The translations under genes and the position numbers were made by a program. A DNA stretch of 40,616 nt from Escherichia phage EC.W1-9. The notes below the pieces were generated by a model. It was not told the origin of the DNA and did no database searches. It saw only the letters and a program-made list of their open reading frames with translations. The stretch lies in sequence record PP445227.1. One strand, given 5' to 3'. Every line of letters starts with the position of its first letter. Position 1 is the stretch's first letter. Shown here piece by piece: positions 1,815 through 40,499 of this stretch.

Positions 1815-1829
1815 TTACCTGGAAGGTAA
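1815..1829. promoter_or_regulatory. Palindromic site TTACC-N5-GGTAA (ATTACCtggaaGGTAAT)
   Basis: Perfect inverted repeat in the P/DUF1064 intergenic region. Confidence 0.5.
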
Positions 1830-1876
1830 TAAAATGTTCTAATCTCTATTGATTTCATGTCTTATGTGGTTTTTAA

Positions 1877-1891
1877 TTACCTAAGGGGTAA
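1877..1891. promoter_or_regulatory. Palindromic site TTACC-N5-GGTAA
   Basis: TTACCtaaggGGTAA overlapping the SD region of the gene starting at 1895. Confidence 0.5.
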
Positions 1892-1894
1892 ATC

Positions 1895-2242
1895 ATGAGA
1901 AAACAGATACAGGCTCTTGGTCGACTCAAAACAGGCCAGATGAACAAAACAGAATCTGCGTATTGCCAGCACCTTGAGCTGCGTAAACGTGCAGGGGAAA
2001 TCGCCTGGTATCGATTCGAGGGTATCAAGCTGCGGTTAGCTAATAACACGTTCTATACGCCCGATTTCGCTGTGATGCTCGCCACCGGCGAGATGGAGCT
2101 GCACGAAGTGAAAGGGGGATTCTGGACCGATGACGCCAGAGTGAAAACCAAAGTCGCCGCAGATCAGTATCCGTTCCGAATCATCGGGGTAACGGTTAAA
2201 CCAAAGAAAGCAGGTGGTGGCTGGAACATCGAAGAGTTCTGA
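1895..2242 (+). CDS. DUF1064-family phage protein
   Basis: 115-aa ORF with good SD (AAGGGG); sequence style of the DUF1064 proteins that follow replication genes in lambdoid phages (recalled, not searched). Confidence 0.6.
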   Translation: MRKQIQALGRLKTGQMNKTESAYCQHLELRKRAGEIAWYRFEGIKLRLANNTFYTPDFAVMLATGEMELHEVKGGFWTDDARVKTKVAADQYPFRIIGVTVKPKKAGGGWNIEEF

Positions 2243-2303
2243 ATCGACGATCTATTTAGTTATCAATGTAATCAATAAGTTATGTGGATAAGCGAGGGTA
2301 AAG

Positions 2304-2783
2304 ATGGAAAGTAATATCAAAGGGTTAGTTGCCGCCGGGCATGAGATGGCTTCGGAACTGAAAGCAGAATGTGGTGCCGTTGATATGCGCAGTGTGGCAA
2401 AGCTGATCAGCGATTTGGCAACGCAACTGGAAGTGCAACTGGTGCGTGCTAATGCGCTGGCGGCGGAGAGTGCGGCAATGCATGAAACTATTGAAGCCGT
2501 TCGGAGTGTTGCGGATAACTCCAGTGGAATTGCCGGATGGCATTTGAATGGCGATATCGCTACATGGGAAGAGATTCTTCCTGAAATTAACGATATCGAA
2601 ACTCCAGCCACCGATGCTTTCCTGGCTGAAGTACGTGCGCAGGCGTTTAATGACCTTTGCTCGGCGTTCGTTAAACACGCGAATCTCGCGGGAATGGATG
2701 ATGGTGAGCTAGTGAGGCTTAAATATGCGACGGACGCCCTGCTGCATTGTGCGGAACAGCTTCGCAAAGGAGGCAACCAGTGA
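2304..2783 (+). CDS. Hypothetical protein (nin-region-like)
   Basis: 159-aa ORF, SD GAGGG upstream, same strand as the operon. Confidence 0.55.
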   Translation: MESNIKGLVAAGHEMASELKAECGAVDMRSVAKLISDLATQLEVQLVRANALAAESAAMHETIEAVRSVADNSSGIAGWHLNGDIATWEEILPEINDIETPATDAFLAEVRAQAFNDLCSAFVKHANLAGMDDGELVRLKYATDALLHCAEQLRKGGNQ

Positions 2784-3325
2784 GTGTAACGGTTGAAAAG
2801 ATTGATGTGTTGTCATTCGTTATAACCGGTGCAGAGAGACTAGATCCGGTTCGAGTGATGATTGAAAACTATGAACCTGGAAAGGGAAGAATCACCATCA
2901 CCTGCTACGGAAAAGCGTGGACTGCGGCTTGGTTTGCTATGGGCGGTGATGATGTGCAGACGTTCATTAAGCGAGTCAGCAACGACTATCTAATCGACAA
3001 TTTCGACCCTCAACTGCGAAGCACGGTCGACGATGACAACGATGCAAATCTGCTTTTCGTGAAGTCAGAAATCATAAAGTTACGAAGAGAGAGAGAAATC
3101 GACGCCGTACTGGCTCGCGAAATGTGGTACGAGGCGGAAAACGCCGATGACGTAAAAGAAAGCTGCTGCTGTTTCGGCGTCGGTAACAAACTACTGAATC
3201 TCTTTGGTGATGAGCCGTGGTATGCCAACTGGCCAACGATACCAAACCCGAAATACCAGTATCTGGAACGCGTACTTAATGCAGTGAGAGACGGTCTTAA
3301 GCAAATAGAGAAGGTGGAACCATGA
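2780..3325 (+). CDS. Hypothetical protein
   Basis: GTG at 2780 preceded by AAGGAGG and overlapping the upstream stop; the track ORF begins earlier at 2747. Confidence 0.5.
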   Translation: MSVTVEKIDVLSFVITGAERLDPVRVMIENYEPGKGRITITCYGKAWTAAWFAMGGDDVQTFIKRVSNDYLIDNFDPQLRSTVDDDNDANLLFVKSEIIKLRREREIDAVLAREMWYEAENADDVKESCCCFGVGNKLLNLFGDEPWYANWPTIPNPKYQYLERVLNAVRDGLKQIEKVEP

Positions 3326-3621
3326 CTGTATGTCTTATTGATAAACGTCGACGTGGGCAACAAATACCATCTGTTGAAATGCCGAATCACACATGGTTTT
3401 GCGTACTTGATATCGATGGCATGGATAAGTTTGTTGACACTCGTCATTACTGCGATACCGCAACAGCTACTCCGGCGAAAGCAAAGAAAATGGCTGCTCT
3501 GATAGAAAACTGGACTCCACCTGATGGTTGGTGCAATGGGAATGATCGGGATTGGCATGAAAAAATGAAGGGCTATATCTGCGATTTTTTACGTAAATGC
3601 AACGGATTCAGGGTGATGTGA
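3322..3621 (+). CDS. Hypothetical protein
   Basis: ATG overlaps upstream stop (translational coupling), SD AAGGTGG. Confidence 0.5.
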   Translation: MTVCLIDKRRRGQQIPSVEMPNHTWFCVLDIDGMDKFVDTRHYCDTATATPAKAKKMAALIENWTPPDGWCNGNDRDWHEKMKGYICDFLRKCNGFRVM

Positions 3622-3622
3622 C

Positions 3623-4387
3623 ATGAGCAAGATTGACTATCAGGCACTGCGTGCCAAGGCAGAAAAAGCAACGTGTGGTGTATGGTCGCTCGAATATGGA
3701 GAGAGCCGATTTGATGGTGATGATGCGCTAATTCATCGTGAAGTTGCTGGATATATTCCTATTTGCAGAATTGAAGGAGCGCATCCAGAAAGCGGTTTCG
3801 ATGAAGATTTCCAAATGGAACAGCAGGCCAATGCTGAATTCATCGCCGCAGCCAGTCCATCTACCGTGCTGGCACTGCTGGATGAACGGGAAAGAAACCA
3901 GCAATACATCAAACACCGTGACCAGGAGAACGAGGATATTGCGCTAACGGTAGGGAAGCTGCGTGTTGAGCTTGAGGAAGCAAAATCAAAACTCAACGAG
4001 CAACGCGAGTATTACGAAGGTGTTATCTCGGATGGAAGTAAGCGTATTGCTGAACTGGAGAAAAGCGAAGAGCAACTCATTAACGAGCGTGACCATGCTG
4101 AGTCTGCTTTAGCTGATATGTATTTTGCAGCAACCGGGGATAGGCCTGAGTGGAGTAACTGGTTCGGTTTTTCAGATGCAGTAGATGCCGTAGTTGACAG
4201 AATTGCTGATTTAGAAGCTAAACAGCCATCGCCAGTAGTACCTGAAGGACTGATTAAAGCGGTGCGTTTTTATGAGCAGGTAAAACGTGAGAACCCGCCA
4301 GTCGAAACCGGAGCATGGAAAGACGCTGTTGACTGGGTGCTCAAAGAGGCTTGCCAGGCTGTAAACATTGGCATCAAAGGAGAGTGA
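3623..4387 (+). CDS. Ead/Ea22-like protein
   Basis: 254 aa, acidic coiled-coil centre, sequence style of lambdoid Ead/Ea22 family proteins (recalled). Confidence 0.55.
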   Translation: MSKIDYQALRAKAEKATCGVWSLEYGESRFDGDDALIHREVAGYIPICRIEGAHPESGFDEDFQMEQQANAEFIAAASPSTVLALLDERERNQQYIKHRDQENEDIALTVGKLRVELEEAKSKLNEQREYYEGVISDGSKRIAELEKSEEQLINERDHAESALADMYFAATGDRPEWSNWFGFSDAVDAVVDRIADLEAKQPSPVVPEGLIKAVRFYEQVKRENPPVETGAWKDAVDWVLKEACQAVNIGIKGE

Positions 4388-4388
4388 T

Positions 4389-4904
4389 ATGGCGTTAACA
4401 CACCGCGAACTCTGTCAGATTGCGTACAAGTTCCTTAAGCGCAACGGGTTCAAGGTTTGTTTTCATGACCGCTTTATAGCTGTAACCAGTACCGGAGAAC
4501 AGCCAGATGCTATGGGATTCAGAAATTCAGCATCATGCCTGATAGAGGCGAAGTGTTCTCGTGCTGACTTGTTGGCAGATAGAAAAAAGCGTTTTCGTAA
4601 AAATCCGTCTCTTGGAATGGGCGACTGGCGATTCTTTATTAGTGAGCCAGGAATTATTTCAATTGAGGATTTACCACCTGGCTGGGGATTACTTCACGTT
4701 GTTAACGGAAGAGTACGGAAAGTACATGGGTGGCCCAAGGGTAATTGCTGTTGGGGTAATCCTGACGATAAGCCATTTACTGGAAATAAGCAGGTTGAAT
4801 GCGATTACATGTTATCTGCATTAAGGCGCATGGAGTTGAGAGGGCACCTTAATGAAATATATGACGGTGTAATTGTTAATAAGAAAGAAGGAAACGCAGC
4901 ATGA
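4389..4904 (+). CDS. Putative PD-(D/E)xK-type nuclease
   Basis: ATG at 4389 after AAGGAGAG; motif QPDAMGF…CLIEAK fits the D…E-x-K catalytic spacing. Confidence 0.45.
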   Translation: MALTHRELCQIAYKFLKRNGFKVCFHDRFIAVTSTGEQPDAMGFRNSASCLIEAKCSRADLLADRKKRFRKNPSLGMGDWRFFISEPGIISIEDLPPGWGLLHVVNGRVRKVHGWPKGNCCWGNPDDKPFTGNKQVECDYMLSALRRMELRGHLNEIYDGVIVNKKEGNAA

Positions 4905-6247: not shown

Positions 6248-6331
6248 CTAAAGGCTGGCATGAAACGAAATTAATAGTGTGACATGTCACGAGTAGATTA
6301 TGCATGATGAATTTGATGGGTTTTGAATACT

Positions 6332-6358
6332 GCCGCCAACTATGGCGGCTTTATTTTG
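6332..6358 (+). terminator. Rho-independent terminator-like hairpin upstream of the terminase genes
   Basis: GCCGCC-aactat-GGCGGC followed by TTTATTTTG. Confidence 0.55.
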
Positions 6359-6368
6359 CATGGTACTA

Positions 6369-6383
6369 TTACCACAACGGTAA
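6369..6383. promoter_or_regulatory. Palindromic site TTACC-N5-GGTAA
   Basis: TTACCacaacGGTAA; a weaker second copy TTACCatggtGGTTA at 6387-6401. Confidence 0.45.
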
Positions 6384-6400
6384 CAATTACCATGGTGGTT

Positions 6401-6997
6401 ATGATGCCTGCTGAACCTAAAACCTATAAACGCAAATCAACGCAATTTAAGCCACTAACCGCAATGCAGGAGGCTTATTGCCAGTCATACATCAAAACGC
6501 CTGAAAACCAGACTCAGGCAGCGATTAACGCAGGATTCTCCCCAAATACAGCGGCAGTTAAAGCCAGTGTCATGATGCGCGATGAACGCATTCAAAAACG
6601 GATTGCCGAGTTGATGGAGGAGCGCAACAAACGAATGCGCGTCAGTGCCGATTACGTTCTCATGCGCCTGGTGGAGATCGACCAGATGGACGTGATTGAT
6701 ATCCTCAATGACGATGGGAGCCTTAAGCCAATCCGCGAGTGGCCGAAAATCTGGCGCACTACGCTTAGTGGCTTTGATCTGTCATCGACCATCATGAACA
6801 TGAACGAGGATTCGATAGAGACAATTCTCAAAAAAATTAAATGGCCTGACAAGGTGAAGAACCTCGAACTGATTGGTAAGCACGTCGACGTCAATGCATT
6901 CAAAGAACGCCTGGATGTTAATGTGAATGTGACAATTGCTGATCGCATAGCGGCAGCCAGGAAGCGACTCAAAGAACGTCAGGATGGTAATCAGTGA
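6401..6997 (+). CDS. Terminase small subunit
   Basis: AYCQSYIKTPENQTQAAINAGFSPNTAAVKAS region typical of phage small terminase; directly upstream of the large terminase. Start taken at the ATG at 6401 rather than the TTG at 6323. Confidence 0.7.
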   Translation: MMPAEPKTYKRKSTQFKPLTAMQEAYCQSYIKTPENQTQAAINAGFSPNTAAVKASVMMRDERIQKRIAELMEERNKRMRVSADYVLMRLVEIDQMDVIDILNDDGSLKPIREWPKIWRTTLSGFDLSSTIMNMNEDSIETILKKIKWPDKVKNLELIGKHVDVNAFKERLDVNVNVTIADRIAAARKRLKERQDGNQ

Positions 6998-8463: not shown

Positions 8464-8467
8464 AGTT

Positions 8468-9073
8468 TTAAGCAGCATTGTCTGTGTTGCGATTGTTCCT
8501 TGAGTTAAACTTATTTGCAATTCTGGTATTGGATTTTATTTTTTCTTCTGCAAGTTCTTTTTCAAGCGCCATTATTTTTTCAATAAGGGAATCTCTTTCC
8601 TGCAAAAAAGAATTCAAAGACTCTTGGTGCTTGATTAAATCATTTTTATAGAATTGAATCTCAGACTCAAACTCAACCTTAACTCTGTCGTATGTAATGT
8701 CCCTTTGTGCCTCAAGCTTACGCAATTCTATGGCGTTTTTAACATCCCTGAGGCTTTTGTTGTGTTTGAAGTTATCGATGTTCTGTAGTGGAATTTTTTG
8801 AAACATCACCACTATATTGTTAAACCATGGAACTATTACACACAGCGCGAATGCACATAAAGCTGGATATAAGAGTGAGTGGTACGCATCACTATGGGAA
8901 GATATATAATTTATTTTTTCTTCAATTCCTGACTTACTGAAGAATAAAAATAATAGTGGATTCCAGTTAAAAGAACACCACGAAAACACAAATGCCCCAA
9001 GTGCTGGGTTGCGGACTCTCTCTGACGCTGTGCTAATAGCCGATGATGCGATCTCTTTAAATTGCTCGAACAT
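8468..9073 (-). CDS. Accessory (moron) membrane protein with C-terminal coiled coil
   Basis: 201-aa ORF on the opposite strand to the late operon, visibly AT-rich; two hydrophobic helices then a Lys/Glu-rich heptad region; palindromic site 33 bp upstream. Confidence 0.6.
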   Translation of the reverse strand: MFEQFKEIASSAISTASERVRNPALGAFVFSWCSFNWNPLLFLFFSKSGIEEKINYISSHSDAYHSLLYPALCAFALCVIVPWFNNIVVMFQKIPLQNIDNFKHNKSLRDVKNAIELRKLEAQRDITYDRVKVEFESEIQFYKNDLIKHQESLNSFLQERDSLIEKIMALEKELAEEKIKSNTRIANKFNSRNNRNTDNAA

Positions 9074-9105
9074 GTCTAAACCAGATGTTAAATGTTTTTG
9101 TTATC

Positions 9106-9120
9106 TTACCTTCAAGGTAA
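9106..9120. promoter_or_regulatory. Palindromic site TTACC-N5-GGTAA
   Basis: TTACCttcaaGGTAA upstream of the minus-strand moron gene. Confidence 0.5.
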
Positions 9121-9323
9121 CGTTCAGTCACCAGGCAAAAAAATGCCCGGCGAACCGGGCGAACTGGAAGCAATGAGTTATGCCTTCCGTGGCTGTACTG
9201 GTTTACAGCATGAAGTCATCGCAATGGCGTCCTGCTGTAAAAAGGGCGGTGATAGTCCTTCAAGGGAAACAGTCACCGCCAATCCCCTGGAACTTCTGGC
9301 ATCACGGTCCTTAGGCGTGATTC

Positions 9324-9400: not shown

Positions 9401-9729
9401 AACGCTGAGAGCACTGGTTTGGCTCGATATCAGGTAGGGTGGAACAGCCCGCTAATATCCAATGCTCTCATCGTTGTACCCTCGTCTCTTCCGAGGCGTC
9501 ACACCGAATCGCCGGGATGGTGAATCCCCGTGCGCGGAATAAAACCGCTCGACTTGCACATTCCGGCTACCTGGTTCGTTTGCCCGAGCAAGGGAGGGTG
9601 CCCCTTAAACGTATCCAGACCGCTATCGTCGCATGTGCCATACGCCGTACTGCTCAAAATAAAAGCTCACTCCACCTGTTCAATTTAACGACAAGCCAGT
9701 CAGGTTAGTAACCGGAATGAACTCTTTGG

Positions 9730-9744
9730 TTACCTTAAAGGTAA
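9730..9744. promoter_or_regulatory. Palindromic site TTACC-N5-GGTAA
   Basis: TTACCttaaaGGTAAT upstream of the head-gene cluster. Confidence 0.5.
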
Positions 9745-9834
9745 TAATTCGTGCATTAAATGTCAACTGTCTACGATAAATAAATCATATGTGGTTAAAT
9801 TGGTAATAATTTAATTGCGTACGGAGTCATTGAT

Positions 9835-10041: not shown

Positions 10042-10055
10042 CCGGAGTCATTGAA

Positions 10056-26007: not shown

Positions 26008-26556
26008 TTACTTTTCTTCAGGTTTGTTGTCTTCAGATTTCTTCTTGATGCTTGGTTTTTGTCTAAGAACGAAAATACCAGCCACTGCAACAACTGTACC
26101 GATCACTGTGCCAGCTAGAACTTCATGACCTGTTAAACCTAATAATGTTGCACAAGCTACTGTAAAAATAGTTGCACTCAGGCCAAACCACTGCCCACGT
26201 TTATCTCTATTAATAGCCCCGTCAAGTGCCTTTTCCTCCATTTTCTGGCGGTGAGCAAACTCCTTCTCCGTCAGCTGGAAGATGCGTTCGGGGGCATCAG
26301 GTAAAATATCCTGATACCCGCGAAGCAGATAGGGGGGAGGAAGCGGACCCTGAAACGCATGGTGAGCGACAACTATCTCCTGAATTTCAGGGCGATCAAG
26401 AACTCTTGTGAAGGCATCTGGGTGTTGAATGATCTCGTTACTTAGCCCTTCCTCAACTTCCTCGAACTCAGTTTCTTCGTTATCACTTGGTTGCCCAATA
26501 GATTTTTGCATATTTGTCGAAGGACATTCCTTTAGCTTCTGGTTTTCCTCTTGCAT
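26008..26556 (-). CDS. Membrane protein (acidic N-terminal domain, two C-terminal TM helices)
   Basis: 182-aa ORF; C-terminal WFGLSATIFTVACATLLGL…TVIGTVVAVAGIFVL hydrophobic segments; sequence style reminiscent of DUF2335 proteins (recalled, uncertain). Confidence 0.5.
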   Translation of the reverse strand: MQEENQKLKECPSTNMQKSIGQPSDNEETEFEEVEEGLSNEIIQHPDAFTRVLDRPEIQEIVVAHHAFQGPLPPPYLLRGYQDILPDAPERIFQLTEKEFAHRQKMEEKALDGAINRDKRGQWFGLSATIFTVACATLLGLTGHEVLAGTVIGTVVAVAGIFVLRQKPSIKKKSEDNKPEEK

Positions 26557-26809
26557 TTGAGTTTTTCCCTGTCACTATTGCCCATTTTCCGCCAGCAGGC
26601 GCTGCAATTTTTTTTCCGTTCTTTACTATATATTCAGCATAAACACGATTTTCTGACCGTCTGAGATCGTCTCCGACCATATTCATGTCTCTTGATATAA
26701 CTTTGACGACAGAGTCTCGGTTTAAAGCCTTGGCATAGTTGGAGCCAGGAACGATACCCAAAGGGGTGCCAGACTCTATAGCCAGCTCCTTGACATATCT
26801 TCTGCTCAT
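26483..26809 (-). CDS. Hypothetical protein, first gene of a minus-strand accessory operon
   Basis: ATG at 26809 with GAGGT 4 nt upstream; palindromic site in its promoter region. Confidence 0.5.
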   Translation of the reverse strand: MSRRYVKELAIESGTPLGIVPGSNYAKALNRDSVVKVISRDMNMVGDDLRRSENRVYAEYIVKNGKKIAAPAGGKWAIVTGKNSNARGKPEAKGMSFDKYAKIYWATK

Positions 26810-26830
26810 ATGAACCTCAACCAATCGACT

Positions 26831-26845
26831 TTACCAATCGGGTAA
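26831..26845. promoter_or_regulatory. Palindromic site TTACC-N5-GGTAA
   Basis: TTACCaatcgGGTAAT about 22 bp upstream of the 26809 start. Confidence 0.5.
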
Positions 26846-26930
26846 TTTTAAACATGAGTATAATGCTTTTAACTGCAACGAGTGTAAACAATTATTGATA
26901 ATTGTAGGCACATCCCTGTGCCGCCGCCCG

Positions 26931-27623
26931 TCAGAAGAACCCTGCTTTGTCGTTGATGTACTCCGCGTGCGTCTGGATATCACGCAGGCATTTGCTCACA
27001 CCGACGATGTAGCAGAACATGGTGGTCAACTCCGCCGCCGCGCCCGATACGTCGTGCCCGTCTTCCTGTAACTGGTTTAGCAGATTCATCAGCAGTGAGT
27101 TCTCCGTCAGGCCGAGAACACCAGACGGCGAATGAATCAGGCTGCGGTAGCCGGGCTTCAGTGGGGCGCTGTAGGTTTTGTTCTCTACCTTCATTGCCTG
27201 CATCACTGCTGATGCTGTGGCGTTGGCTACCTGGTCGGCAACCATCTTTATGCGTTCTTCCTGCGGGAGCGAGTTTTTAATGTAACTTCCGGTGCGGCGG
27301 ATCTGAGGAAGAACCTCACCTGTAACCCATTCAAGAAATCTGAATGCTCTCGTTCCCTCAGTCATTGCCTCTTTGCAACGCAGAATAAGGATGTAGAGAC
27401 CTGATTCTGAAACGATGGATAGTTCTTGTATTCCACCAGGGGTCTGTATTGAATACAGCCCCTTTTTGTTCCAGCCTTTTTTATCAAGTTTTCTCGCTTG
27501 TGTAACATCAATATTCAAAGCATTGCACACATCTTTGGTGACAAACCAAGGTTCTCCGTCAATCATGAACATACGGATCTGGCAGGATGACTCAAAGGAA
27601 AAGATGGAAGGTTTGGTATTCAT
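26931..27623 (-). CDS. Antirepressor (Bro-N / KilA-N-type N-terminal domain)
   Basis: N-terminus FSFESSCQIRMFMIDGEPWFVTKDVCNALNI…GLYSIQTPGGIQELSIVSESGLYILI matches the Bro-N antirepressor fold pattern; ATG at 27623 after AAAGGTGA. Confidence 0.7.
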   Translation of the reverse strand: MNTKPSIFSFESSCQIRMFMIDGEPWFVTKDVCNALNIDVTQARKLDKKGWNKKGLYSIQTPGGIQELSIVSESGLYILILRCKEAMTEGTRAFRFLEWVTGEVLPQIRRTGSYIKNSLPQEERIKMVADQVANATASAVMQAMKVENKTYSAPLKPGYRSLIHSPSGVLGLTENSLLMNLLNQLQEDGHDVSGAAAELTTMFCYIVGVSKCLRDIQTHAEYINDKAGFF

Positions 27624-27889
27624 AGCGATCACCTTTGTAGTTAGGTTAATCACCACCGCTGAGACCAATCAGATGGTGGTGAACTGTGCAGAGTTGGTCT
27701 TACCGGCTACAAAGGAACCCGGCGCACCTTTCGGTGCCCCCACACAGCCCACCATAGAATAGGTGCGCTTTACACATAAAAAAACCGCTTATGCGGCATA
27801 TGTGCCTCTGTAGTAATCCGGGAGACCAATCCCGGCACTGGATTTTGCCAGTGCCCGATTACTATGGCACAAGAGGAGTGCAATGTAAA

Positions 27890-27904
27890 TTTACCGAAAA
27901 GGTA
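27890..27904. promoter_or_regulatory. Palindromic site TTACC-N5-GGTAA
   Basis: TTACCgaaaaGGTAAT; TATATGGTTTGAT follows about 35 bp downstream. Confidence 0.5.
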
Positions 27905-28066
27905 ATAATAAATGCATAACTCACGTTATTTCAACCCTATATGGTTTGATTTATCCCATTTCAGAAAATACCTGCCTATTTTTTTGCCAGTATGCGTATA
28001 CTTTCGATAGAATGTTTACCCTAGAGGTAGTTGGGGGTGCCCGTGAACACGAAGAGAGCTACAGTA

Positions 28067-28486
28067 ATGCAGCATTTGAGGAAATCAGAAAAAAATAAAG
28101 ACCATGAAATATTGAGTAAGGCCATTGTTCGGGCTTCCAATAATACTGTTATACCTCATGCTGAAGAGTCTGGACAGAAATTTCTTATTCGGTATTTCAC
28201 TGAAAATAGTGCAGTTGAGGAGATTTTAAAACATCAGGGAGGGGAATTTAAATGTGGAAAACTGGCAGATTATGTTCGTCGTGAAACGTCTGAACAAGAA
28301 GTATATTATGCTGATATTAATCATAAGTCAGGTGTGAAAATTGTAATAGGCTATTACACAACTCCCAAAAATGTTATGCATGAGGTCCCAAAGATGTCCG
28401 TCGAGAAATCTCATGCAATCTCGCGCAGGATGTTTGCACGCACTGCCGAAGATATGGCTCAGGAGCTCTACGACGATGCTGAATAA
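28067..28486 (+). CDS. Hypothetical protein, first gene of a two-gene accessory cassette
   Basis: ATG at 28067 after GAAGAGAG; 139 aa; overlaps the next gene by 11 nt. Confidence 0.5.
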   Translation: MQHLRKSEKNKDHEILSKAIVRASNNTVIPHAEESGQKFLIRYFTENSAVEEILKHQGGEFKCGKLADYVRRETSEQEVYYADINHKSGVKIVIGYYTTPKNVMHEVPKMSVEKSHAISRRMFARTAEDMAQELYDDAE

Positions 28487-28982
28487 ATTCCAGGGGTTGG
28501 TTCACCCTGGAATTTTTGGGAAGGACCCTGAGCTAATACCTATCAAAAACGCGTTCATAGATCACTGGCGCTACGGTCATCATAAGGATTTCGGAAAGGA
28601 CACTCTGTTTCGGGATCCACCGAAAGAAATGCTGGAATATCACATACGCCACGTTCACGTAAACATCGGAAACTATACTGACAAGTTTGGTGAGAGCGGT
28701 ACGGAACAATGCTGGAAAAACTGGGCGTCTGGGAAGAAAGACAAGACCACTAACAAGCATAAAAAGATCCCAACCAGTGACGTGTATGTGATTTATCTGG
28801 TCACATCTGAACGCCATGCCTTCCTTCTGGATTATTGGGATGAACCAGCACATAAGACAGTAGAAATTGACGAGCAGAAGCAAAAATTAGTTGTCGAGTG
28901 TGACAGAATTTTGCGGCTGAAAAAGTTAGAATCCATGCCGCGCGATGCTAGTTTGTGGGACCCAGAATTTTACGACTGTTAA
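28476..28982 (+). CDS. Hypothetical protein, possible toxin-like component (weak YafO-like motifs)
   Basis: 168 aa; motifs HVHVN and AFLLDYWDEPAHK resemble YafO-family toxin blocks as recalled from memory; followed by a terminator. Confidence 0.4.
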   Translation: MLNKFQGLVHPGIFGKDPELIPIKNAFIDHWRYGHHKDFGKDTLFRDPPKEMLEYHIRHVHVNIGNYTDKFGESGTEQCWKNWASGKKDKTTNKHKKIPTSDVYVIYLVTSERHAFLLDYWDEPAHKTVEIDEQKQKLVVECDRILRLKKLESMPRDASLWDPEFYDC

Positions 28983-28983
28983 T

Positions 28984-29008
28984 GGCCGCTTTCGCGGCCT
29001 TTTCTTTA
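28984..29008 (+). terminator. Rho-independent terminator (GGCCGC-tttc-GCGGCC + TTTTCTTTA)
   Basis: Same 16-nt hairpin as at 25731. Confidence 0.6.
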
Positions 29009-29263
29009 TGTGGTTTGTTTTCGTAATTGTTCGGCACAATAGTCGAGATGTGTTTGCAGATCCTGCATAGACATCTGTGAGCTGGTGACGTAGTTAATCA
29101 GTGCAGTCAGTTCGGCAAGTGGGCCATCGACATTAAATCCATCCTTATCGAGATCCCGGAGTAATTTCATCAAGTGCGATCCCTCCACCAGTGACCTGAC
29201 GCCTCCCGGCGTGTGAATCCTTTCGGTAAATCCGTCTTCCAGTGGATAGTGATACTGCTGCAT
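29006..29263 (-). CDS. Small protein paralogous to the antirepressor C-terminal domain
   Basis: ERIHTPGGVRSLVEGSHLMKLLRDLDKDGFNVDGPLAELTALINYV aligns by eye with the C-terminus of the 26931-27623 protein; ATG at 29263 after GGAGAAG. Confidence 0.5.
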   Translation of the reverse strand: MQQYHYPLEDGFTERIHTPGGVRSLVEGSHLMKLLRDLDKDGFNVDGPLAELTALINYVTSSQMSMQDLQTHLDYCAEQLRKQTT

Positions 29264-29339
29264 CTTATCTTCTCCATGCAATAACTGTATGTTTATACAG
29301 TAACAAATAATTTGTTTGCTATCCAGCACGTTTTGCAAA

Positions 29340-29354
29340 TTACCCGAAAGGTAA
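29340..29354. promoter_or_regulatory. Palindromic site ATTACC-N5-GGTAAT (perfect)
   Basis: In the divergent intergenic region between the 29263 gene and the tailspike. Confidence 0.55.
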
Positions 29355-29458
29355 TATCTATTGGTATTTATAGTCTTTTTATCCATATATGGTTTTTCAG
29401 GTAATAGAATAACCAGATATGCGGCGCAACGGGTGCTGCGACTATCTGGAGATTTAAC

Positions 29459-31963: not shown

Positions 31964-32185
31964 CTGCTACCGCGCCATTTGATGGTGCGGAATTCAACTA
32001 ATCCTCTATATTTTGAATCATTTCTGTACTGCAATCTCTTCAGAGTTATGTAAAAGGCAAGCCTTATTATCGACATGAAAGGAAGGGGATTGACAATGCA
32101 TGGGTAACAAAAAACCATAAATGGTTTATCATGCGTAATGCCTTTACTATTCAGGAGGTAGTTATGCATATAAACGGTGGAAAAC

Positions 32186-32590
32186 ATGTCAGCTCAACTA
32201 ACCAGTGAAACTTTAAATCAGTGGCTTAGCATGAGTTCTCTGGCGGCGGTGATAGCAGGAGTTCCTCCTGAGGTTGCTTTGGGGGCTTTGGCTGGGGCGG
32301 TAATTTTTGTTACCTCTGCGGTAGAGTATCCTATTCGTCGTCGTGTACTCTTGTCGATGCTTAGCTTTCTCTGCGGCCTTCTTTTTTATAAACCAGCAGC
32401 ATCAATTCTTATCGGCATAGCCAGCCTGATCCCTACCATCACGCAGGACTCTTTTGAAAAAGGGATTGTTTTCTCAGCTGGCGCATTCGTGTCAGCAATT
32501 GTTGCTGTGCGTATTGGTATATGGCTCTATCACCGTTCCGATAATCCACGCGAGTTAATTCCGGGGAGAAAAGACGATGGTAACGCATGA
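32186..32590 (+). CDS. Holin-like membrane protein
   Basis: Three hydrophobic helices, charged C-terminus, first gene of the lysis cassette; ATG at 32186 after GGTGGA. Confidence 0.55.
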   Translation: MSAQLTSETLNQWLSMSSLAAVIAGVPPEVALGALAGAVIFVTSAVEYPIRRRVLLSMLSFLCGLLFYKPAASILIGIASLIPTITQDSFEKGIVFSAGAFVSAIVAVRIGIWLYHRSDNPRELIPGRKDDGNA

Positions 32591-32885: not shown

Positions 32886-33504
32886 ACAATTCCAGCGAGC
32901 TGCTGGTATTAGCGAGTCGCTGGCCGCACGCTGGTTCTCGCATATAACTTCTGCGATGAAAGAGTTTGGTATCAGCAAAGCAGAAGATCAGGCAATGTTT
33001 ATTGCTCAGGTCGGGCATGAGTCTGGGGGCTTCACCCGGTTGCAGGAGAATTTCAACTACAGCGTCAGCGGACTGGCTAACTTTGTTCGGGCTGGGCGTC
33101 TCACTCAGGGACAGGCCAACGCATTGGGGCGACGCGCAGGCGAACCACCATTGCCACTTGAGCGCCAGAGAGCGATTGCCAATCTGGTGTACAGCAAACG
33201 CATGGGGAACAATGCCCCCGGCGATGGCTGGAATTACCGTGGCCGCGGACTTATCCAGATTACCGGTTTGAATAACTATCGTGATTGCGGAAACGGCCTG
33301 AAAGTGGACCTGCTGGAGAATCCTGAACTGTTGGCGCAGGACGAATACGCGGCTCGTAGCGCGGCGTGGTTCTTCTCCAGCAAAGGTTGCATGAAGTATA
33401 CCGGCGATATTGCACGTGTAACTCTGATTATCAATGGTGGCAGGAATGGCATCGACGACCGGCGCGCGCGGTACGTCACTGCCAGTAAGGTGCTGGCTGT
33501 ATGA
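32875..33504 (+). CDS. Endolysin, glycoside hydrolase family 19-like
   Basis: [10 protein letters not shown]…[12 protein letters not shown] pattern typical of GH19 phage endolysins; ATG at 32875 chosen over the upstream track start. Confidence 0.7.
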
Positions 33505-33983: not shown

Positions 33984-34155
33984 CATGGCATTTTTCATGG
34001 TACTGATTTCCGGTGACGGTATATAAAACGGTACGAGAAAAATTCATATTTGGAAAAATGTTATCACTCAATTGGTTATGGTATCCGTAAATAATTGAGT
34101 GGGAATGATTAACAGCTAACTCATAGCAAATCATTCCTATTCAGATGCCAACTCA

Positions 34156-34187: not shown

Positions 34188-34243
34188 ATGTATTCATTTC
34201 TATTCACTCTACACCATATTTTTCGGCGGTACAGGTGACGGTA

Positions 34244-34258
34244 TTACCTTAAAGGTAT
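34244..34258. promoter_or_regulatory. Palindromic site TTACC-N5-GGTAt (imperfect)
   Basis: ATTACCttaaaGGTATA upstream of the integrase. Confidence 0.4.
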
Positions 34259-34300
34259 ACTCTCATACCGTCATGAAAATGGTTTCTATACGGGTGAATT

Positions 34301-35551: not shown

Positions 35552-35554
35552 CGT

Positions 35555-35749: not shown

Positions 35750-36396
35750 GCTGCACGCTCCCGCCCCTGGTTGTCTGTTGGTGACAGCGGAGCATTGCTG
35801 AATGCATTTGTTAATCTGGCAATATCCAACGCGTATCCAGGGTGTAGTTGCACTGCCGGGTCTTCGCACTGATTACCCCAAACATCGAAACCATGAGACG
35901 ACTGGCGGGCGAACAGTTCAATGCGAGAAACATCGCCTAACAATTGCACAAGTTTTTCACGAACGATATCTGGTTTTCTTGAATGCTCAAGCCGCGGTGC
36001 GGTAAATGACTGAACGATCCCTGCATTAATGCGCGTAGGTAGTTTTCCCTTTACTGCAAACAGGCAATCTTCACTATTGGCGCGAGTCATGTGACCCATA
36101 CCCATAACCAGTTTATCTGGTTGTCGACTACCACATTTTATCCACGTGAATCCCTTCATGGTCATCAGACGGAATCCCCAGGCCTCAACAACTTTTAGTG
36201 CTTCGAGTGGTTGTGTTGGCACCCACCACATGGCCAACAGACAGTTTTCATCGGCCAAATCCCACACAGGAAGGCGGCAGATATCCAGCACACTCATAAC
36301 CGGATATTTAAAACCGGCACCGCGATTACCATCTGCGGCTTTGTCCCGGTATACCCAGGGTGGATCTGCATAGATTAGTGTGTATTTCTTAGTCAT
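35746..36396 (-). CDS. MT-A70-family DNA N6-adenine methyltransferase
   Basis: Catalytic DPPW motif (LIYADPPWVY); ATG at 36396 after GGGGTGG. Confidence 0.75.
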   Translation of the reverse strand: MTKKYTLIYADPPWVYRDKAADGNRGAGFKYPVMSVLDICRLPVWDLADENCLLAMWWVPTQPLEALKVVEAWGFRLMTMKGFTWIKCGSRQPDKLVMGMGHMTRANSEDCLFAVKGKLPTRINAGIVQSFTAPRLEHSRKPDIVREKLVQLLGDVSRIELFARQSSHGFDVWGNQCEDPAVQLHPGYALDIARLTNAFSNAPLSPTDNQGRERAA

Positions 36397-36640
36397 AAAC
36401 CACCCCACAACATCCTATGCCGCTATAGTCGCCACGGCGAAGGCCGTTACCTTTTGTGATACATTGGTCCCTGCGAACCGCGATCCTTGCACGCTCAACA
36501 TCACCAGAAGCAACATCCATACACTGAAGCCAAAGGTGAGCGGCAATGCGGAACTGCCCTTTTTTCTCTCTTTCAATCGCGCGTTTTTCGATCTCTATCG
36601 CCGCAGGAGTAACGGCGACAATCTTTGACGGACTGCGCAT
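36389..36640 (-). CDS. Hypothetical small protein
   Basis: Start taken at the ATG at 36640 (AAGGT upstream); overlaps the methyltransferase start by 8 nt. Confidence 0.4.
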   Translation of the reverse strand: MRSPSKIVAVTPAAIEIEKRAIEREKKGQFRIAAHLWLQCMDVASGDVERARIAVRRDQCITKGNGLRRGDYSGIGCCGVVYD

Positions 36641-36797
36641 TGAAACCTTGTTCATGTGATATTTTTCAAGTCGGCTTAACTTTCTCACTTAATCCAACCC
36701 TCTCTGAAAATTAATGCCAGCAGATAAAGCCATGCTGAAACAGAGGCCAGGAATAAGTACCATCCTGACCATTTGCTCCAGTGCCTTAGCAGCACAC

Positions 36798-37046: not shown

Positions 37047-37095
37047 AAATACCTCTCTTGGTTGCAGTGCGGCGCGCGTGGCGCCGCGGTGGTGG

Positions 37096-39151: not shown

Positions 39152-39153
39152 TA

Positions 39154-39306: not shown

Positions 39307-39325
39307 AACTTGTTACCTCGGTCTG

Positions 39326-39340
39326 TTACCGTTGAGGTAA
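39326..39340. promoter_or_regulatory. Palindromic site TTACC-N5-GGTAA
   Basis: TTACCgttgaGGTAAT 20 bp upstream of the leftward operon's first gene; an extra TTACC half-site at 39313. Confidence 0.5.
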
Positions 39341-39387
39341 TAATTATGCGTATATGGTTTGATGTCAATAGATATGAGTTAAAAAAA

Positions 39388-39402
39388 TTACCCGTTAGGT
39401 AA
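39388..39402. promoter_or_regulatory. Palindromic site ATTACC-N5-GGTAAT (perfect)
   Basis: Second site in the same control region. Confidence 0.5.
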
Positions 39403-39414
39403 TCGAATAGGCAA

Positions 39415-39438
39415 TAAAAAAGCCGCCATAAGGCGGCT
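39415..39438 (-). terminator. Rho-independent terminator after the repressor-like gene
   Basis: On the minus strand GCCGCC-ttat-GGCGGC followed by TTTTTT. Confidence 0.65.
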
Positions 39439-39459
39439 TACTTACTGAAAAATATGGTT

Positions 39460-40044
39460 TTATTGTTTGTTTTTTTCGTTCTGGTTGATGACAAATTCAA
39501 TGTAACTTTCGATCTTTGCTTTCTCGGTTTCGGGTAACAATGCGTAGCGCGAGCGATCATAGTTGATGGTCGCAGGGTCGTGCGGGTGAATCAGTAATTC
39601 ATAGCCGTGACGCCCGAATGCGGATGCAACATTCTCCAGGGTGGAAATGGAAACGCTGACCTCATTGTTTAACAGGCGGCTGATTGTCACCTGGGCTACG
39701 CCGGATGCGCGGTGAAGTTTTCCCTGTGTTGAAAGGTCGCGGCTTTCGCTCATCCAGCGTTCCAGGTTGTGAGCCGCCAGCTGGCCAATGTCGCTTGGGC
39801 CGACAGGCTGAAAACCTTCCTGAGAAAGCGAGCGATCGATATCAAGCCAGTTACGGGGTTTATTGGCGGCAGCTTCAATTTTTCGCGCAACCTGATCGCC
39901 GATAACCTTCTTACCAAGAGCCCAGCGGTTTACCAGATTTGCCTGAGTTCCAAGTTTTTCAGCCATCCGCGTCTGAACACCATTGAATTCACGGTCGATC
40001 AAGTCGTTGAGATTTTGCCTGCGGACGTCCTGGATACTTTTCAT
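39460..40044 (-). CDS. Repressor-like DNA-binding protein with two HTH-like segments
   Basis: 194 aa; segments LGTQANLVNRWALGKKVIGDQVARKIE and SGVAQVTISRLLNNEVSVSISTLENVASAFG look like XRE-type HTH units; divergent from a Cro-like gene across a triple-site region; no S24 peptidase motif noticed. Confidence 0.5.
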   Translation of the reverse strand: MKSIQDVRRQNLNDLIDREFNGVQTRMAEKLGTQANLVNRWALGKKVIGDQVARKIEAAANKPRNWLDIDRSLSQEGFQPVGPSDIGQLAAHNLERWMSESRDLSTQGKLHRASGVAQVTISRLLNNEVSVSISTLENVASAFGRHGYELLIHPHDPATINYDRSRYALLPETEKAKIESYIEFVINQNEKNKQ

Positions 40045-40098
40045 TTTCTGGAAAATCGCCTCATATATGAATCAGTAGATGATTCAATTTAAAGCAAT

Positions 40099-40113
40099 AT
40101 TACCCAACAGGTA
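40099..40113. promoter_or_regulatory. Operator-like site 1 of the divergent control region (ATTACCcaacaGGTAAA)
   Basis: TTACC-N5-GGTAA between the repressor-like and Cro-like genes. Confidence 0.55.
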
Positions 40114-40115
40114 AA

Positions 40116-40130
40116 TGCACCTCATGGGTA
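40116..40130. promoter_or_regulatory. Operator-like site 2 (GCACCtcatgGGTAA, imperfect)
   Basis: Centre 17 bp from site 1. Confidence 0.35.
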
Positions 40131-40146
40131 ACTATCCTTGATTTTT

Positions 40147-40161
40147 GTTACCTTATGGGTG
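40147..40161. promoter_or_regulatory. Operator-like site 3 (TTACCttatgGGTGA, imperfect)
   Basis: Centre 31 bp from site 2; triplet arrangement. Confidence 0.45.
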
Positions 40162-40198
40162 AATATTTATTATCTGAAATAAATATCAGGCAATAGCT

Positions 40199-40429
40199 AT
40201 GAGCGATAACGGACATTTCGATTTCAAAAAGCACTGGCTTGCACTTACTCCGGATGAGCGTGAAGCCTTCGCACAGGAAGCCGGAACGACGAGTCACTAT
40301 ATCCAGACTCACTTAACAGGTAAGCGCAAAATGCCAGGTAAAGTATTGATGAATGGGCTTTTTAAAGCCTGTAAAACAAGACAATGGCTGCGCTCAAAAG
40401 CAGAACTGGCATACTTCTTCTACTCATGA
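40199..40429 (+). CDS. Cro-like small DNA-binding protein
   Basis: 76 aa, transcribed divergently from the repressor-like gene, followed by a terminator; possible HTH in FAQEAGTTSHYIQTHLTGKR. Confidence 0.45.
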   Translation: MSDNGHFDFKKHWLALTPDEREAFAQEAGTTSHYIQTHLTGKRKMPGKVLMNGLFKACKTRQWLRSKAELAYFFYS

Positions 40430-40461
40430 TATCCAGCTACAACCCTCTGTAGACCGCCACC

Positions 40462-40483
40462 CGGCGGTCTTTTCATATCTATT
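40462..40483 (+). terminator. Rho-independent terminator downstream of the Cro-like gene
   Basis: GACCGCC-accc-GGCGGTC followed by TTTT. Confidence 0.6.
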
Positions 40484-40484
40484 C

Positions 40485-40499
40485 GTACCTCAAAGGTAA
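40485..40499. promoter_or_regulatory. Palindromic site gTACC-N5-GGTAAT (imperfect)
   Basis: Directly after the terminator; AACCAAATATGGTT follows. Confidence 0.4.

What the first reader, a model, noticed from the sequence alone, without database searches (positions are those of the whole stretch)
1815..40499. A 17-bp palindrome ATTACC-N5-GGTAAT recurs at about 15 intergenic junctions across the whole genome
Sites at 1815, 1877, 6369, (6387), 9106, 9730, 26831, 27890, 29340, 34244, 39326, 39388, 40099, 40116, 40147 and 40485 share the inverted-repeat core TTACC-N5-GGTAA, usually with A/T flanks. All lie in intergenic DNA at operon starts or module boundaries (replication/nin, terminase, both accessory insertions, tailspike, integrase, leftward operon). 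Three lie as a triplet between the divergent repressor-like and Cro-like genes, the geometry of a lambdoid OR. This looks like one dimeric DNA-binding protein controlling a genome-wide regulon that includes the accessory genes, which is far more distributed than the two-operator lambda scheme. It could alternatively be a module-boundary sequence used in mosaic recombination.
Basis: seen in the sequence. Interest (0 to 1): 0.85.

Follow-up and report, generated by a model that had tools for sequence, protein, structure and literature searches.

The report
Repressor operators of an epsilon15-like phage
The repeated 17-bp palindrome is real and is almost certainly the binding site of this phage's own lysogeny repressor, but the same sites at the same genome positions are already annotated in its relative, Salmonella phage epsilon15, so the finding is correct but not new.

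Summary
TTACC-N5-GGTAA occurs 11 times exactly against 0.04 expected. All 11 exact sites and 5 of the 6 one-mismatch sites lie in the 10% of the genome that is non-coding.

The window is a complete, circularly permuted genome of an epsilon15/phiV10-like podophage (Uetakevirus), not a lambdoid phage.

- **The binder.** The gene at 39460-40044 is 100% identical to the phiV10 repressor. It is a full-length homologue of the SPC32H Rep repressor (PDB 5D50).
- **The switch.** Rep's partner antirepressor Ant (29006-29263) is present, with a LexA box upstream.
- **Conservation.** The same palindrome is the most frequent palindrome of its type in phiV10, epsilon15, SPC32H, Tyrion and a Klebsiella relative. 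It sits at the same genome positions with the same spacings (62 bp, 18 bp, 17+30 bp).
- **Prior annotation.** The epsilon15 GenBank record already labels seven of these sites "repressor" binding sites scattered over the genome.

Best explanation: these are Rep operators at about ten promoter regions, often in pairs, which fits a tetrameric Rep. The module-boundary idea fits only a few junctions.

Verdict: already known, low interest. A second conserved motif, CAWATNNGGTT, lies beside several operators at the same promoters in all relatives and remains unexplained.

The parts
39460..40044 (-). rep: lysogeny repressor (194 aa), the proposed binder of the palindrome
   Evidence: 100% identical to phiV10 Rep. 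Full-length match to SPC32H Rep, PDB 5D50_A, E=4e-42. Pfam finds only HTH-type domains and no S24 peptidase. The N-terminal motif NLVNRW is invariant across five Rep proteins that are only 42-78% identical overall.
40099..40163 (.). Operator triplet between rep and the cro-like gene: 40099-40115 (exact core), 40116-40132 (2 mismatches), 40147-40163 (1 mismatch)
   Evidence: A predicted rightward promoter, TTGTTA-17-TATTAT at 40145-40173, overlaps the third site. Site spacing of 17 and 30-31 bp is conserved in epsilon15 and SPC32H.
40199..40429 (+). cro-like gene (76 aa), first gene of the rightward operon
   Evidence: Matches PHROG 35, 'transcriptional repressor', E=5.6e-13. Syntenic with phiV10 p41 and epsilon15 gp39.
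39325..39403 (.). Operator pair at the leftward early promoter: 39325-39341 and 39387-39403, centres 62 bp apart
   Evidence: Exact cores. A predicted leftward promoter, TTGACA-17-AATTAT at 39368->39340, lies between them with its -10 abutting the left site. The 62-63 bp spacing is conserved in phiV10, Tyrion, epsilon15, SPC32H and BUCT711. Two of the homologous epsilon15 sites are annotated 'repressor'.
1814..1892 (.). Operator pair after the replication genes: 1814-1830 and 1876-1892, centres 62 bp apart. The second site covers the ribosome-binding site of the gene starting at 1895
   Evidence: Exact cores and sequence context. The 62-bp spacing is conserved in all six relatives. The epsilon15 homologue at 35906-35922 is annotated 'repressor'. 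A promoter between the sites (TTGATT 1849-1854) is my own reading; the consensus scan did not find it.
6368..6402 (.). Adjacent operator pair 6368-6384 and 6386-6402, between a terminator (6332-6349) and the terminase small-subunit start codon (6404)
   Evidence: The 18-bp spacing is conserved in phiV10, epsilon15 and Tyrion. The epsilon15 site at 12-27 is annotated 'repressor'. No sigma-70-like promoter is recognisable here.
9105..9121 (.). Operator just upstream of the leftward accessory gene 8468-9073
   Evidence: Exact core and context. Homology to phiV10 and TL-2011b resumes 24 bp away, at 9137.
9729..9745 (.). Operator upstream of the gp3/portal structural operon
   Evidence: Exact core. 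Conserved at the same position in all 8 genomes compared. The epsilon15 homologue at 2931-2947 is annotated 'repressor'. A predicted leftward promoter at 9773->9744 abuts it.
26830..26846 (.). Operator just downstream of a predicted leftward promoter (26888->26860) for accessory genes 26483-26809 and 26008-26556 (DUF2335)
27890..27906 (.). Operator overlapping the -10 of a predicted leftward promoter (27934->27905) for the Bro-N antirepressor-like gene 26931-27668
   Evidence: Homology to phiV10 ends within 3 bp of this site.
28015..28031 (.). One-mismatch operator directly after a predicted rightward promoter (27984-28013, TTGCCA-18-TAGAAT).
29339..29355 (.). Operator between the divergent ant and tailspike genes
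   Evidence: Perfect 17-mer. Conserved at the same position in all relatives. The epsilon15 homologue at 19895-19911 is annotated 'repressor'.
29006..29263 (-). ant: small antirepressor (85 aa)
   Evidence: E=1.3e-47 to the SPC32H anti-repressor, PDB 5D50_E.
29285..29300 (.). LexA-box-like sequence CTGTATGTTTATACAG upstream of ant
   Evidence: and context. Conserved as a CTGT...ACAG-type sequence upstream of ant in relatives.
34243..34259 (.). One-mismatch operator (ATTACCTTAAAGGTATA) between the attP core (34094-34110) and the integrase start (34301)
   Evidence: The same one-mismatch form is conserved in phiV10, epsilon15, Tyrion, SPC32H and BUCT711.
40484..40500 (.). One-mismatch operator after the cro terminator, upstream of a predicted promoter (40517-40545) for the next rightward gene, which runs across the window ends

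Best explanation
The palindromes are the operators of the phage's own lysogeny repressor, Rep (39460-40044).

**How it is proposed to work.** Pairs of Rep's N-terminal helix-turn-helix domains recognise the two TTACC half-sites, whose centres are one helical turn (10 bp) apart. By homology with SPC32H Rep, the protein works as a tetramer carrying two such DNA-binding pairs, so one tetramer can hold two operators at once. This fits the conserved pairs: 62 bp apart around the leftward early promoter and the post-replication promoter, and 17-18 bp apart at the rep/cro region and before the terminase gene.

**In the lysogen.** Rep bound at about 17 sites in about ten regions would directly shut off nearly every transcription unit. 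These are the two early operons, the post-replication (nin-like) genes, terminase, the structural operon, tailspike, ant, integrase and the accessory genes. This differs from lambda, where two operator regions control a cascade.

**Induction.** By homology, induction would run through LexA-controlled Ant, which takes Rep off the DNA.

**Shown here:** site enrichment, intergenic bias, overlap with predicted promoters, conservation of position and spacing, and homology of Rep and Ant to solved proteins.

**Inferred:** actual Rep binding at each site, tetramer bridging, and repression of each promoter.
For: - Enrichment: 11 exact cores against 0.04 expected. All 11 exact and 5 of 6 one-mismatch sites are in the 10.4% non-coding DNA.
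- Rep is a full-length homologue of SPC32H Rep, PDB 5D50, E=4e-42, and is 100% identical to phiV10 Rep.
- Published description of SPC32H Rep: it binds palindromic DNA as a tetramer in which the DNA-binding pairs come from different dimers (PMC9638917; PMC9986798).
- Overexpressing the identical repressor in phage ZX5 cut endolysin and holin transcripts by more than 99.9% (PMC9782041).
- The epsilon15 record AY150271.2 annotates seven 'protein_bind: repressor' features. They read ATTACC-N5-GGTAAT and lie before terminase, before gp3, before tailspike, at the left operon and after the replication gene.
- TTACC-N5-GGTAA is the most frequent 5+5 palindrome in six Uetakevirus genomes and is absent from an unrelated Pseudomonas phage.
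- Positions and spacings are conserved across E. coli, Salmonella, Enterobacter and Klebsiella phages.
- The predicted recognition segment NLVNRW is invariant although the Rep proteins are only 42-78% identical.
- Predicted promoters overlap or abut the sites at 39340, 40145, 27905, 28013, 26860 and 9744.
- Ant (E=1e-47 to 5D50_E) and a LexA box are present.
Against: - No binding or expression data exist for this genome, and none can be produced here.
- The three primary papers (Kropinski 2007; Kim and Ryu 2013; Kim et al. 2016) are not in the held library. The operator sequence used in the SPC32H experiments therefore could not be checked.
- Several sites do not overlap a recognisable sigma-70 promoter: 1814, 6368/6386, 34243 and 40484. 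Their mode of action (auxiliary looping site, roadblock, or block of translation start) is guesswork.
- The promoter scans found no more promoter-like sites than shuffled sequence gives, so each promoter assignment is weak on its own.
- The cro-like protein could share some or all of these sites.
- All Rep variants compared recognise the same core, so there is no covariation test between protein and site.
Confidence: 0.9

Rival explanations
1. The palindrome is mainly a module-boundary or linker sequence. As a short sequence shared between otherwise different phages, it would serve as a crossover point for mosaic recombination, with no regulatory role of its own.
For: Some homology breakpoints between the window and its relatives fall very close to sites: 9137 (24 bp from the 9106 site), 27895 (3 bp from 27891), 27911, 40521 and 1898. 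The sites do flank variable accessory regions.
Against: Most breakpoints are hundreds to thousands of bp from any site, for example 2461, 8393, 14611, 18640, 29805, 35540 and 37521. Many sites lie inside regions that are collinear in all relatives: the rep/cro triplet, the left-operon pair, the terminase pair and the gp3 site. The fixed 62-, 18- and 17-bp spacings and the overlap with promoters are not expected of a recombination linker. Occasional crossovers at conserved operators are better seen as a by-product.
Confidence: 0.05
2. The sites are bound chiefly by another regulator rather than Rep. Candidates are the cro-like protein (40199-40429), another phage helix-turn-helix protein, or a host transcription factor recruited by the phage.
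For: The cro-like gene matches a 'transcriptional repressor' family. In lambdoid phages Cro shares the repressor's operators (established knowledge). Nothing here directly shows which protein binds.
Against: The epsilon15 annotators assign the sites to the repressor. Rep's homologue is reported to bind palindromic DNA. The motif travels with Rep through four host genera and is absent from an unrelated phage, which argues against a host factor. Binding by Cro would add to Rep binding, not replace it.
Confidence: 0.04
3. The palindromes act as nucleic-acid hairpins, as terminators or RNA processing or stability signals, not as protein-binding DNA.
For: Each can form a 6-7 bp hairpin, and two of the four tested fold better than all 200 shuffles. 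Several lie near the ends of transcription units.
Against: The hairpins are weak (-3.2 to -4.1 kcal/mol), A/T-rich and lack a following T-run. Proper G+C-rich terminators stand separately next to several sites, at 6332-6349, 39420-39439 and 40451-40470. The stem sequence itself is conserved without compensatory changes, while the loop varies freely. That is the signature of sequence-specific protein recognition.
Confidence: 0.01

Closest known systems
Repressor-binding sites of Salmonella phage epsilon15 (GenBank AY150271.2; Kropinski et al. 2007, Virology 369:234)
   Same: Same genus, same 17-bp palindrome ATTACC-N5-GGTAAT, and the same genome positions: before terminase, gp3 and tailspike, at the left operon, and after the replication genes. 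The record labels them 'repressor / lysogeny'.
   Different: The window's Rep is only 42% identical to epsilon15 Rep. Its operator spacers contain more G/C. The window has extra sites at accessory genes (9105, 26830, 27890, 28015). The epsilon15 record annotates only 7 of the roughly 14 sites I find there and omits the rep/cro triplet.
Rep-Ant-LexA lysis/lysogeny switch of Salmonella phage SPC32H (Kim and Ryu 2013, J Virol; Kim et al. 2016, PNAS; PDB 5D50 and 5D4Z)
   Same: Rep and Ant are full-length homologues (E=4e-42 and 1e-47). A LexA box lies upstream of ant. SPC32H carries the same palindrome at the same positions. The tetrameric Rep with two DNA-binding pairs fits the paired operators.
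   Different: Rep is 42% identical. No experiments exist for the window's allele beyond the ZX5 overexpression study. The window also carries a second, Bro-N-type antirepressor-like gene with its own operator.
Lambda-type immunity region (CI/Cro with OR and OL)
   Same: Divergent repressor and cro-like genes with three operators between them, and a second operator cluster at the leftward early promoter.
   Different: There are about ten operator regions rather than two. Rep has no S24 self-cleavage domain and is predicted to be inactivated by an antirepressor. No late-gene antiterminator was identified.
Genome-wide repressor sites in other temperate phages: mycobacteriophage L5/L1 'stoperators' and the 17-bp conserved inverted repeats of Streptomyces phage phiC31
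   Same: One immunity repressor with many sites spread over the genome, in contrast to lambdoid phages. For L5/L1 see the abstract of PMC1934351. The phiC31 case is from my own memory of Wilson, Ingham and Smith 1995.
   Different: L5-type sites are asymmetric and, from my own memory, biased to one orientation. The sites here are palindromic, mostly at promoters, and often in fixed-spacing pairs. The repressors are unrelated.

Membership tests
Uetakevirus (epsilon15/SPC32H-type) Rep operator system | A Rep-family repressor gene, divergent from a cro-like gene | tested here: met
   Full-length hit to PDB 5D50_A, E=4e-42. Aligns end to end with Rep of epsilon15, SPC32H, Tyrion and BUCT711. Synteny.
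Uetakevirus (epsilon15/SPC32H-type) Rep operator system | 17-bp palindrome ATTACC-N5-GGTAAT identical to the sites annotated as repressor-binding in epsilon15 | tested here: met
   The epsilon15 annotated features read ATTACC-N5-GGTAAT. The window has 11 exact cores.
Uetakevirus (epsilon15/SPC32H-type) Rep operator system | Sites at the same genome positions and with the same spacing as in relatives | tested here: met
   Spacings of 62 bp, 18 bp and 17+30/31 bp are conserved. Upstream regions of gp3, tailspike, terminase, p42 and the nin-like gene were aligned.
Uetakevirus (epsilon15/SPC32H-type) Rep operator system | A small Ant antirepressor under a LexA box | tested here: met
   Ant E=1.3e-47 to 5D50_E. 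CTGTATGTTTATACAG at 29285-29300.
Uetakevirus (epsilon15/SPC32H-type) Rep operator system | Rep physically binds the sites and represses the adjacent promoters | not testable with these tools
   Needs EMSA, footprinting or ChIP. The only indirect support is the ZX5 overexpression result with the identical Rep.
Lambda-type two-operator immunity (CI/Cro, OR/OL) | Tripartite operator between divergent repressor and cro genes | tested here: met
   Sites at 40099, 40116 and 40147.
Lambda-type two-operator immunity (CI/Cro, OR/OL) | Operators confined to two regions, with later genes controlled by an antitermination cascade | tested here: not met
   17 sites in about ten regions.
Lambda-type two-operator immunity (CI/Cro, OR/OL) | Repressor with a RecA-stimulated self-cleaving S24 domain | tested here: not met
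   Pfam finds only HTH-type domains in Rep. An Ant homologue is present instead.
Mycobacteriophage-type stoperators | Many repressor sites spread across the genome | tested here: met
Mycobacteriophage-type stoperators | Asymmetric sites (PMC1934351), in one orientation relative to transcription and inside transcribed regions where they block elongation (my own memory) | tested here: not met
   The sites are palindromic and intergenic, and many overlap promoters. A roadblock role for the terminase pair (6368/6386) cannot be excluded.
Intrinsic terminators | G+C-rich stem followed by a T-run | tested here: not met
   A/T-rich 6-7 bp stems of -3.2 to -4.1 kcal/mol with no T-run.
Mosaic-boundary (linker) sequences | Homology breakpoints between related phages coincide with the sequence | tested here: inconclusive
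   A few breakpoints lie within 30 bp of a site, but most are far away.

The most novel reading that the evidence does not exclude
The Rep operators may be only one layer of control. A second conserved element, CAWATNNGGTT (in its full form the palindrome AACCATATATGGTT), sits next to Rep operators at the same promoters in all eight genomes compared: those of gp3/structural genes, tailspike, lysis and p42, and the left operon in some. At the three late units it lies at a fixed distance, 7 bp upstream of a -10-like hexamer, with no recognisable -35. It could be the target of an unidentified phage regulator, for example the PerC-like activator at 36389-36688 or the cro-like protein. That would define an activator-dependent late-promoter class not annotated in the six annotated relatives' records fetched and give the phage a two-tier circuit without an antiterminator.
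Probability: 0.3. Interest if true: 0.45.

Novelty: already known. Interest (0 to 1): 0.18.

Why it matters
The finding illustrates a way of wiring a temperate phage that differs from lambda. One repressor sits directly on nearly every promoter region, including those of accessory genes, and an SOS-controlled antirepressor removes it.

This matters for reading phiV10-like prophages of pathogenic E. coli. It predicts that their accessory genes stay silent in the lysogen and are released together on induction.

The principle and the sites themselves are already recorded for epsilon15, and the Rep/Ant pair has been characterised structurally for SPC32H. The window therefore adds another example and a fuller site list, not a new mechanism.

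Tried and rejected
- **Primary literature.** I tried to read Kropinski 2007 (PMID 17825342, PMC2698709), Kim and Ryu 2013 (DOI, PMC3807360) and Kim et al. 2016 (DOI, PMC4983836). None is held. Text searches for the operator sequence and for the second motif returned only unrelated primer hits.
- **Protein/site covariation.** I looked for a relative whose Rep differs and whose motif differs with it. All Uetakevirus Rep proteins compared (42-100% identity) go with the same core, so this test gives no information.
- **Terminator or hairpin reading.** Rejected.
- **Module-boundary reading.** Tested by BLAST breakpoints; only a minority coincide with sites.
- **Promoter support.** The promoter scans are not enriched over shuffles, so they support individual sites only weakly.
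- **Second motif as a host-factor site.** From memory of the consensus sequences, the motif does not convincingly fit IHF, DnaA, PhoP or sigma-54 sites.
- **Second motif geometry.** I could not find one promoter geometry that fits every copy. It lies at about -30 to -20 at the three late promoters, about -48 to -38 at the p42 promoter, and inside the spacer at the leftward early promoter.

Full report
**1.

The core TTACC-N5-GGTAA occurs 11 times exactly in the 40.6-kb window. Dinucleotide-preserving shuffles give 0.04. The 17-mer ATTACC-N5-GGTAAT with up to two mismatches occurs 18 times against 1.2 expected. I built a gene map from the ORF list and from synteny with annotated relatives; it covers 89.6% of the genome as coding.

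| Mismatches in core | Found | Expected | Non-coding |
|---|---|---|---|
| 0 | 11 | 0.01 | 11 |
| 1 | 6 | 0.8 | 5 |
| 2 | 21 | about 11 | 1 (40117) |

The two-mismatch matches look like background, except 40117, which is the middle site of the triplet between the divergent regulator genes. One more site, 28015-28031, sits directly after a predicted promoter. The match at 32310 is inside a gene and is probably chance.

**2. What the genome is.**

The window is not lambdoid. It is 96-99% identical over long stretches to Escherichia phages phiV10, PAS61 and phiv142-3, and more distantly related to Enterobacter phage Tyrion, Salmonella phages epsilon15 and SPC32H, and Klebsiella phages. All belong to the genus Uetakevirus, the temperate epsilon15-like podophages. 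Homology to phiV10 runs off the window's end and continues at its start. The window is therefore a complete, circularly permuted genome. The attP core reported for this group (PMC9782041) is at 34094-34110.

**3. The likely binder.**

The product of 39460-40044 is 100% identical to the phiV10 repressor. It matches the SPC32H repressor Rep over its full length (PDB 5D50_A, E=4e-42). Pfam finds only helix-turn-helix-type domains and no self-cleaving S24 peptidase. Published descriptions say SPC32H Rep binds palindromic DNA as a tetramer. Each DNA-binding pair of N-terminal domains comes from different dimers, and the tetrameric antirepressor Ant takes Rep apart (PMC9638917; PMC9986798).

The window also encodes Ant (29006-29263, E=1.3e-47 to 5D50_E). 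A LexA-box-like CTGTATGTTTATACAG lies just upstream. From my memory of Kim and Ryu 2013, this matches the SOS-controlled antirepression switch of SPC32H. In phage ZX5, which has the identical repressor, overexpressing it removed free phage and cut endolysin and holin transcripts by more than 99.9% (PMC9782041).

**4. The sites are already annotated in a relative.**

The GenBank record of epsilon15 (AY150271.2) carries seven 'protein_bind: repressor, lysogeny' features. They lie before the small terminase gene, before gp3, before the tailspike gene, three at the left operon, and one after the replication gene. Read out, each is ATTACC-N5-GGTAAT. Searching for 5+5 palindromes in each genome, TTACC-N5-GGTAA is the most frequent in the window, phiV10, epsilon15, Tyrion, SPC32H and Klebsiella phage BUCT711, at 8-11 exact copies each. 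It is absent from an unrelated Pseudomonas phage whose repressor shares only weak N-terminal similarity.

Positions and spacings are conserved in the relatives compared:

| Location | Arrangement |
|---|---|
| Leftward early promoter | pair, 62-63 bp apart |
| After the replication genes | pair, 62 bp apart |
| Immediately before the terminase start codon | pair, 18 bp apart |
| Between rep and the cro-like gene | triplet, spaced 17 and 30-31 bp |
| Upstream of gp3 | single site |
| Between ant and the tailspike gene | single site |
| Between the attP core and integrase | single site, always with the same one mismatch |

The Rep proteins of these phages are only 42-78% identical to the window's. 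A segment in the N-terminal domain, NLVNRW, is invariant. That fits the unchanged half-site.

**5. How it most likely works.**

Where the consensus scan finds promoters, the operators overlap or abut them:

- The leftward early promoter (TTGACA-17-AATTAT, 39368->39340) lies between the 39325 and 39387 sites, with its -10 touching the first.
- The rightward promoter (40145-40173) is covered by the third site of the triplet.
- The promoters at 27934->27905, 27984-28013, 26888->26860 and 9773->9744 each end at or just before a site.

The fixed pairs fit a tetramer with two DNA-binding units holding two operators at once. At 62 bp (about six helical turns) the two sites face the same side of the helix and bracket a promoter. 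I therefore read the system as Rep sitting directly on about ten regulatory regions. It would silence nearly all transcription units in the lysogen, including accessory genes: the 201-aa gene at 8468-9073, the DUF2335 gene, a Bro-N antirepressor-like gene, and the gene at 28371-28982. LexA-controlled Ant would release it.

Binding, bridging and repression at each site are inferred, not shown. Four locations have no recognisable sigma-70 promoter: 1814, the terminase pair, 34243 and 40484. They may be auxiliary looping sites, roadblocks, or blocks to translation initiation. The 1876 and 6386 sites cover ribosome-binding sites. The promoter scans as a whole are no richer than shuffled sequence, so individual promoter calls are weak.

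**6. Rival explanations.**

- **Module-boundary sequence.** Some homology breakpoints fall within 3-30 bp of a site (9137, 27895, 27911, 40521, 1898), but most are far from any site. Many sites lie in regions collinear in all relatives. Crossovers at conserved operators look like a by-product.
- **Hairpin or terminator.** The stems are weak and A/T-rich, without T-runs. Genuine terminators stand separately nearby. The stem sequence is conserved without compensatory change while the loop varies.
- **Another binder.** A host factor is unlikely because the motif travels with Rep across four host genera. The cro-like protein (PHROG 'transcriptional repressor') may share sites but would not replace Rep.

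**7. Comparison with known systems and novelty.**

This is the repressor-operator system of epsilon15-like phages. It is already annotated in epsilon15, and its Rep and Ant proteins have been characterised structurally in SPC32H. It resembles lambda only in the divergent rep/cro genes with three operators. It fails the lambda tests of two operator regions and a self-cleaving repressor. It shares the genome-wide distribution of mycobacteriophage stoperators and, from memory, of the phiC31 conserved inverted repeats. Unlike stoperators, its sites are palindromic, promoter-associated and paired.

The window contributes a fuller site list. It has 17 sites, whereas the epsilon15 record annotates 7 of the roughly 14 I find there. 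It also shows that accessory genes carry their own operators. I rate it 'already known', with low interest.

**8. Unexplained side observation.**

A second motif, CAWATNNGGTT (full form AACCATATATGGTT), is enriched: 6 matches against 0.84 expected; the related TATRTGGTT gives 6 against 0.43, all on the + strand. Across eight genomes, 29 of 30 plus-strand matches fall at the same few promoter regions: gp3, tailspike, lysis, p42, and the left operon in Tyrion. At the three late units it lies 7 bp upstream of a -10-like hexamer (TAATAA, TAATAG, TATAAT/TATGAT) with no -35. At the p42 promoter it lies just upstream of the -35. At the leftward early promoter it lies in the spacer.

I found no mention of the motif in the searchable literature, and no host-factor consensus that fits. 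It may mark a second regulator's regulon. This is the most novel reading left open.

Noticed in passing
window 9786-9796, 29384-29394, 32113-32126, 40505-40518, 27933-27946, 39351-39359, 1863-1871; the same positions in L001-L005, L007, L008: A second conserved motif, CAWATNNGGTT (full palindrome AACCATATATGGTT), lies next to Rep operators. It is enriched (6 against 0.84 expected). 29 of 30 plus-strand matches in eight genomes fall at the gp3, tailspike, lysis, p42 or left-operon promoter regions. At the three late units it sits 7 bp upstream of a -10-like hexamer with no -35. Its function and binder are unknown.
   Followed up: partly
window 29006-29300: A complete SPC32H-type antirepression module is present: a small Ant gene (E=1e-47 to PDB 5D50_E) with a LexA-box-like CTGTATGTTTATACAG upstream, beside the 29339 operator. 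Induction is therefore probably by antirepressor rather than repressor cleavage.
   Followed up: yes
window 26931-27668 with operator 27890-27906: There is a second, unrelated antirepressor-like gene (Bro-N domain; PHROG 'anti-repressor Ant') with its own Rep operator over the -10 of its predicted promoter. A terminator-like hairpin (27797->27784) lies between promoter and gene. Two antirepressors in one phage.
   Followed up: no
window 1 and 40616: The window is a complete, circularly permuted genome. Homology to phiV10 continues from the window's end to its start, and the small gene starting at 40591 runs across the junction.
   Followed up: yes
operator spacers, window compared with L002/L004 and L005: The five central, non-palindromic bases differ by Rep lineage. 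They are mixed G/C in the phiV10-type phages (for example CGTTA, GTTGA, CAACA), A/T-rich in epsilon15 and SPC32H, and almost pure A/T in the Klebsiella phage. This might tune affinity or immunity specificity although the core is shared.
   Followed up: no
L002 (epsilon15) 33341-33404, 24704, 35969; L001 (phiV10) 41-121: Public annotation is incomplete. The epsilon15 record does not mark the operator triplet between rep and gp39 or several other exact sites. The phiV10 record marks no operators and starts the small terminase gene upstream of both operators, which is probably too early (compare the epsilon15 start right after the second site).
   Followed up: partly
window 32113, 27895, 9137: Some mosaic junctions with relatives fall exactly at regulatory motifs. 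Homology to phiV10 and Tyrion resumes at the first base of the AACCATAAATGGTT motif (32113), ends 3 bp from the centre of the 27891 operator, and resumes 24 bp from the centre of the 9106 operator.
   Followed up: partly
window 9193-9208: A second perfect CTGT-N8-ACAG sequence (CTGTACTGGTTTACAG) lies in the variable region between the 9105 and 9729 operators. It may be chance: 3 such sequences were found against 0.63 expected.
   Followed up: no
window 34243-34259: The site between the attP core (34094-34110) and integrase always carries the same one-base departure (GGTATA) in all six genomes. This suggests a deliberately weak operator, or a sequence that also serves integrase or attP function.
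   Followed up: no
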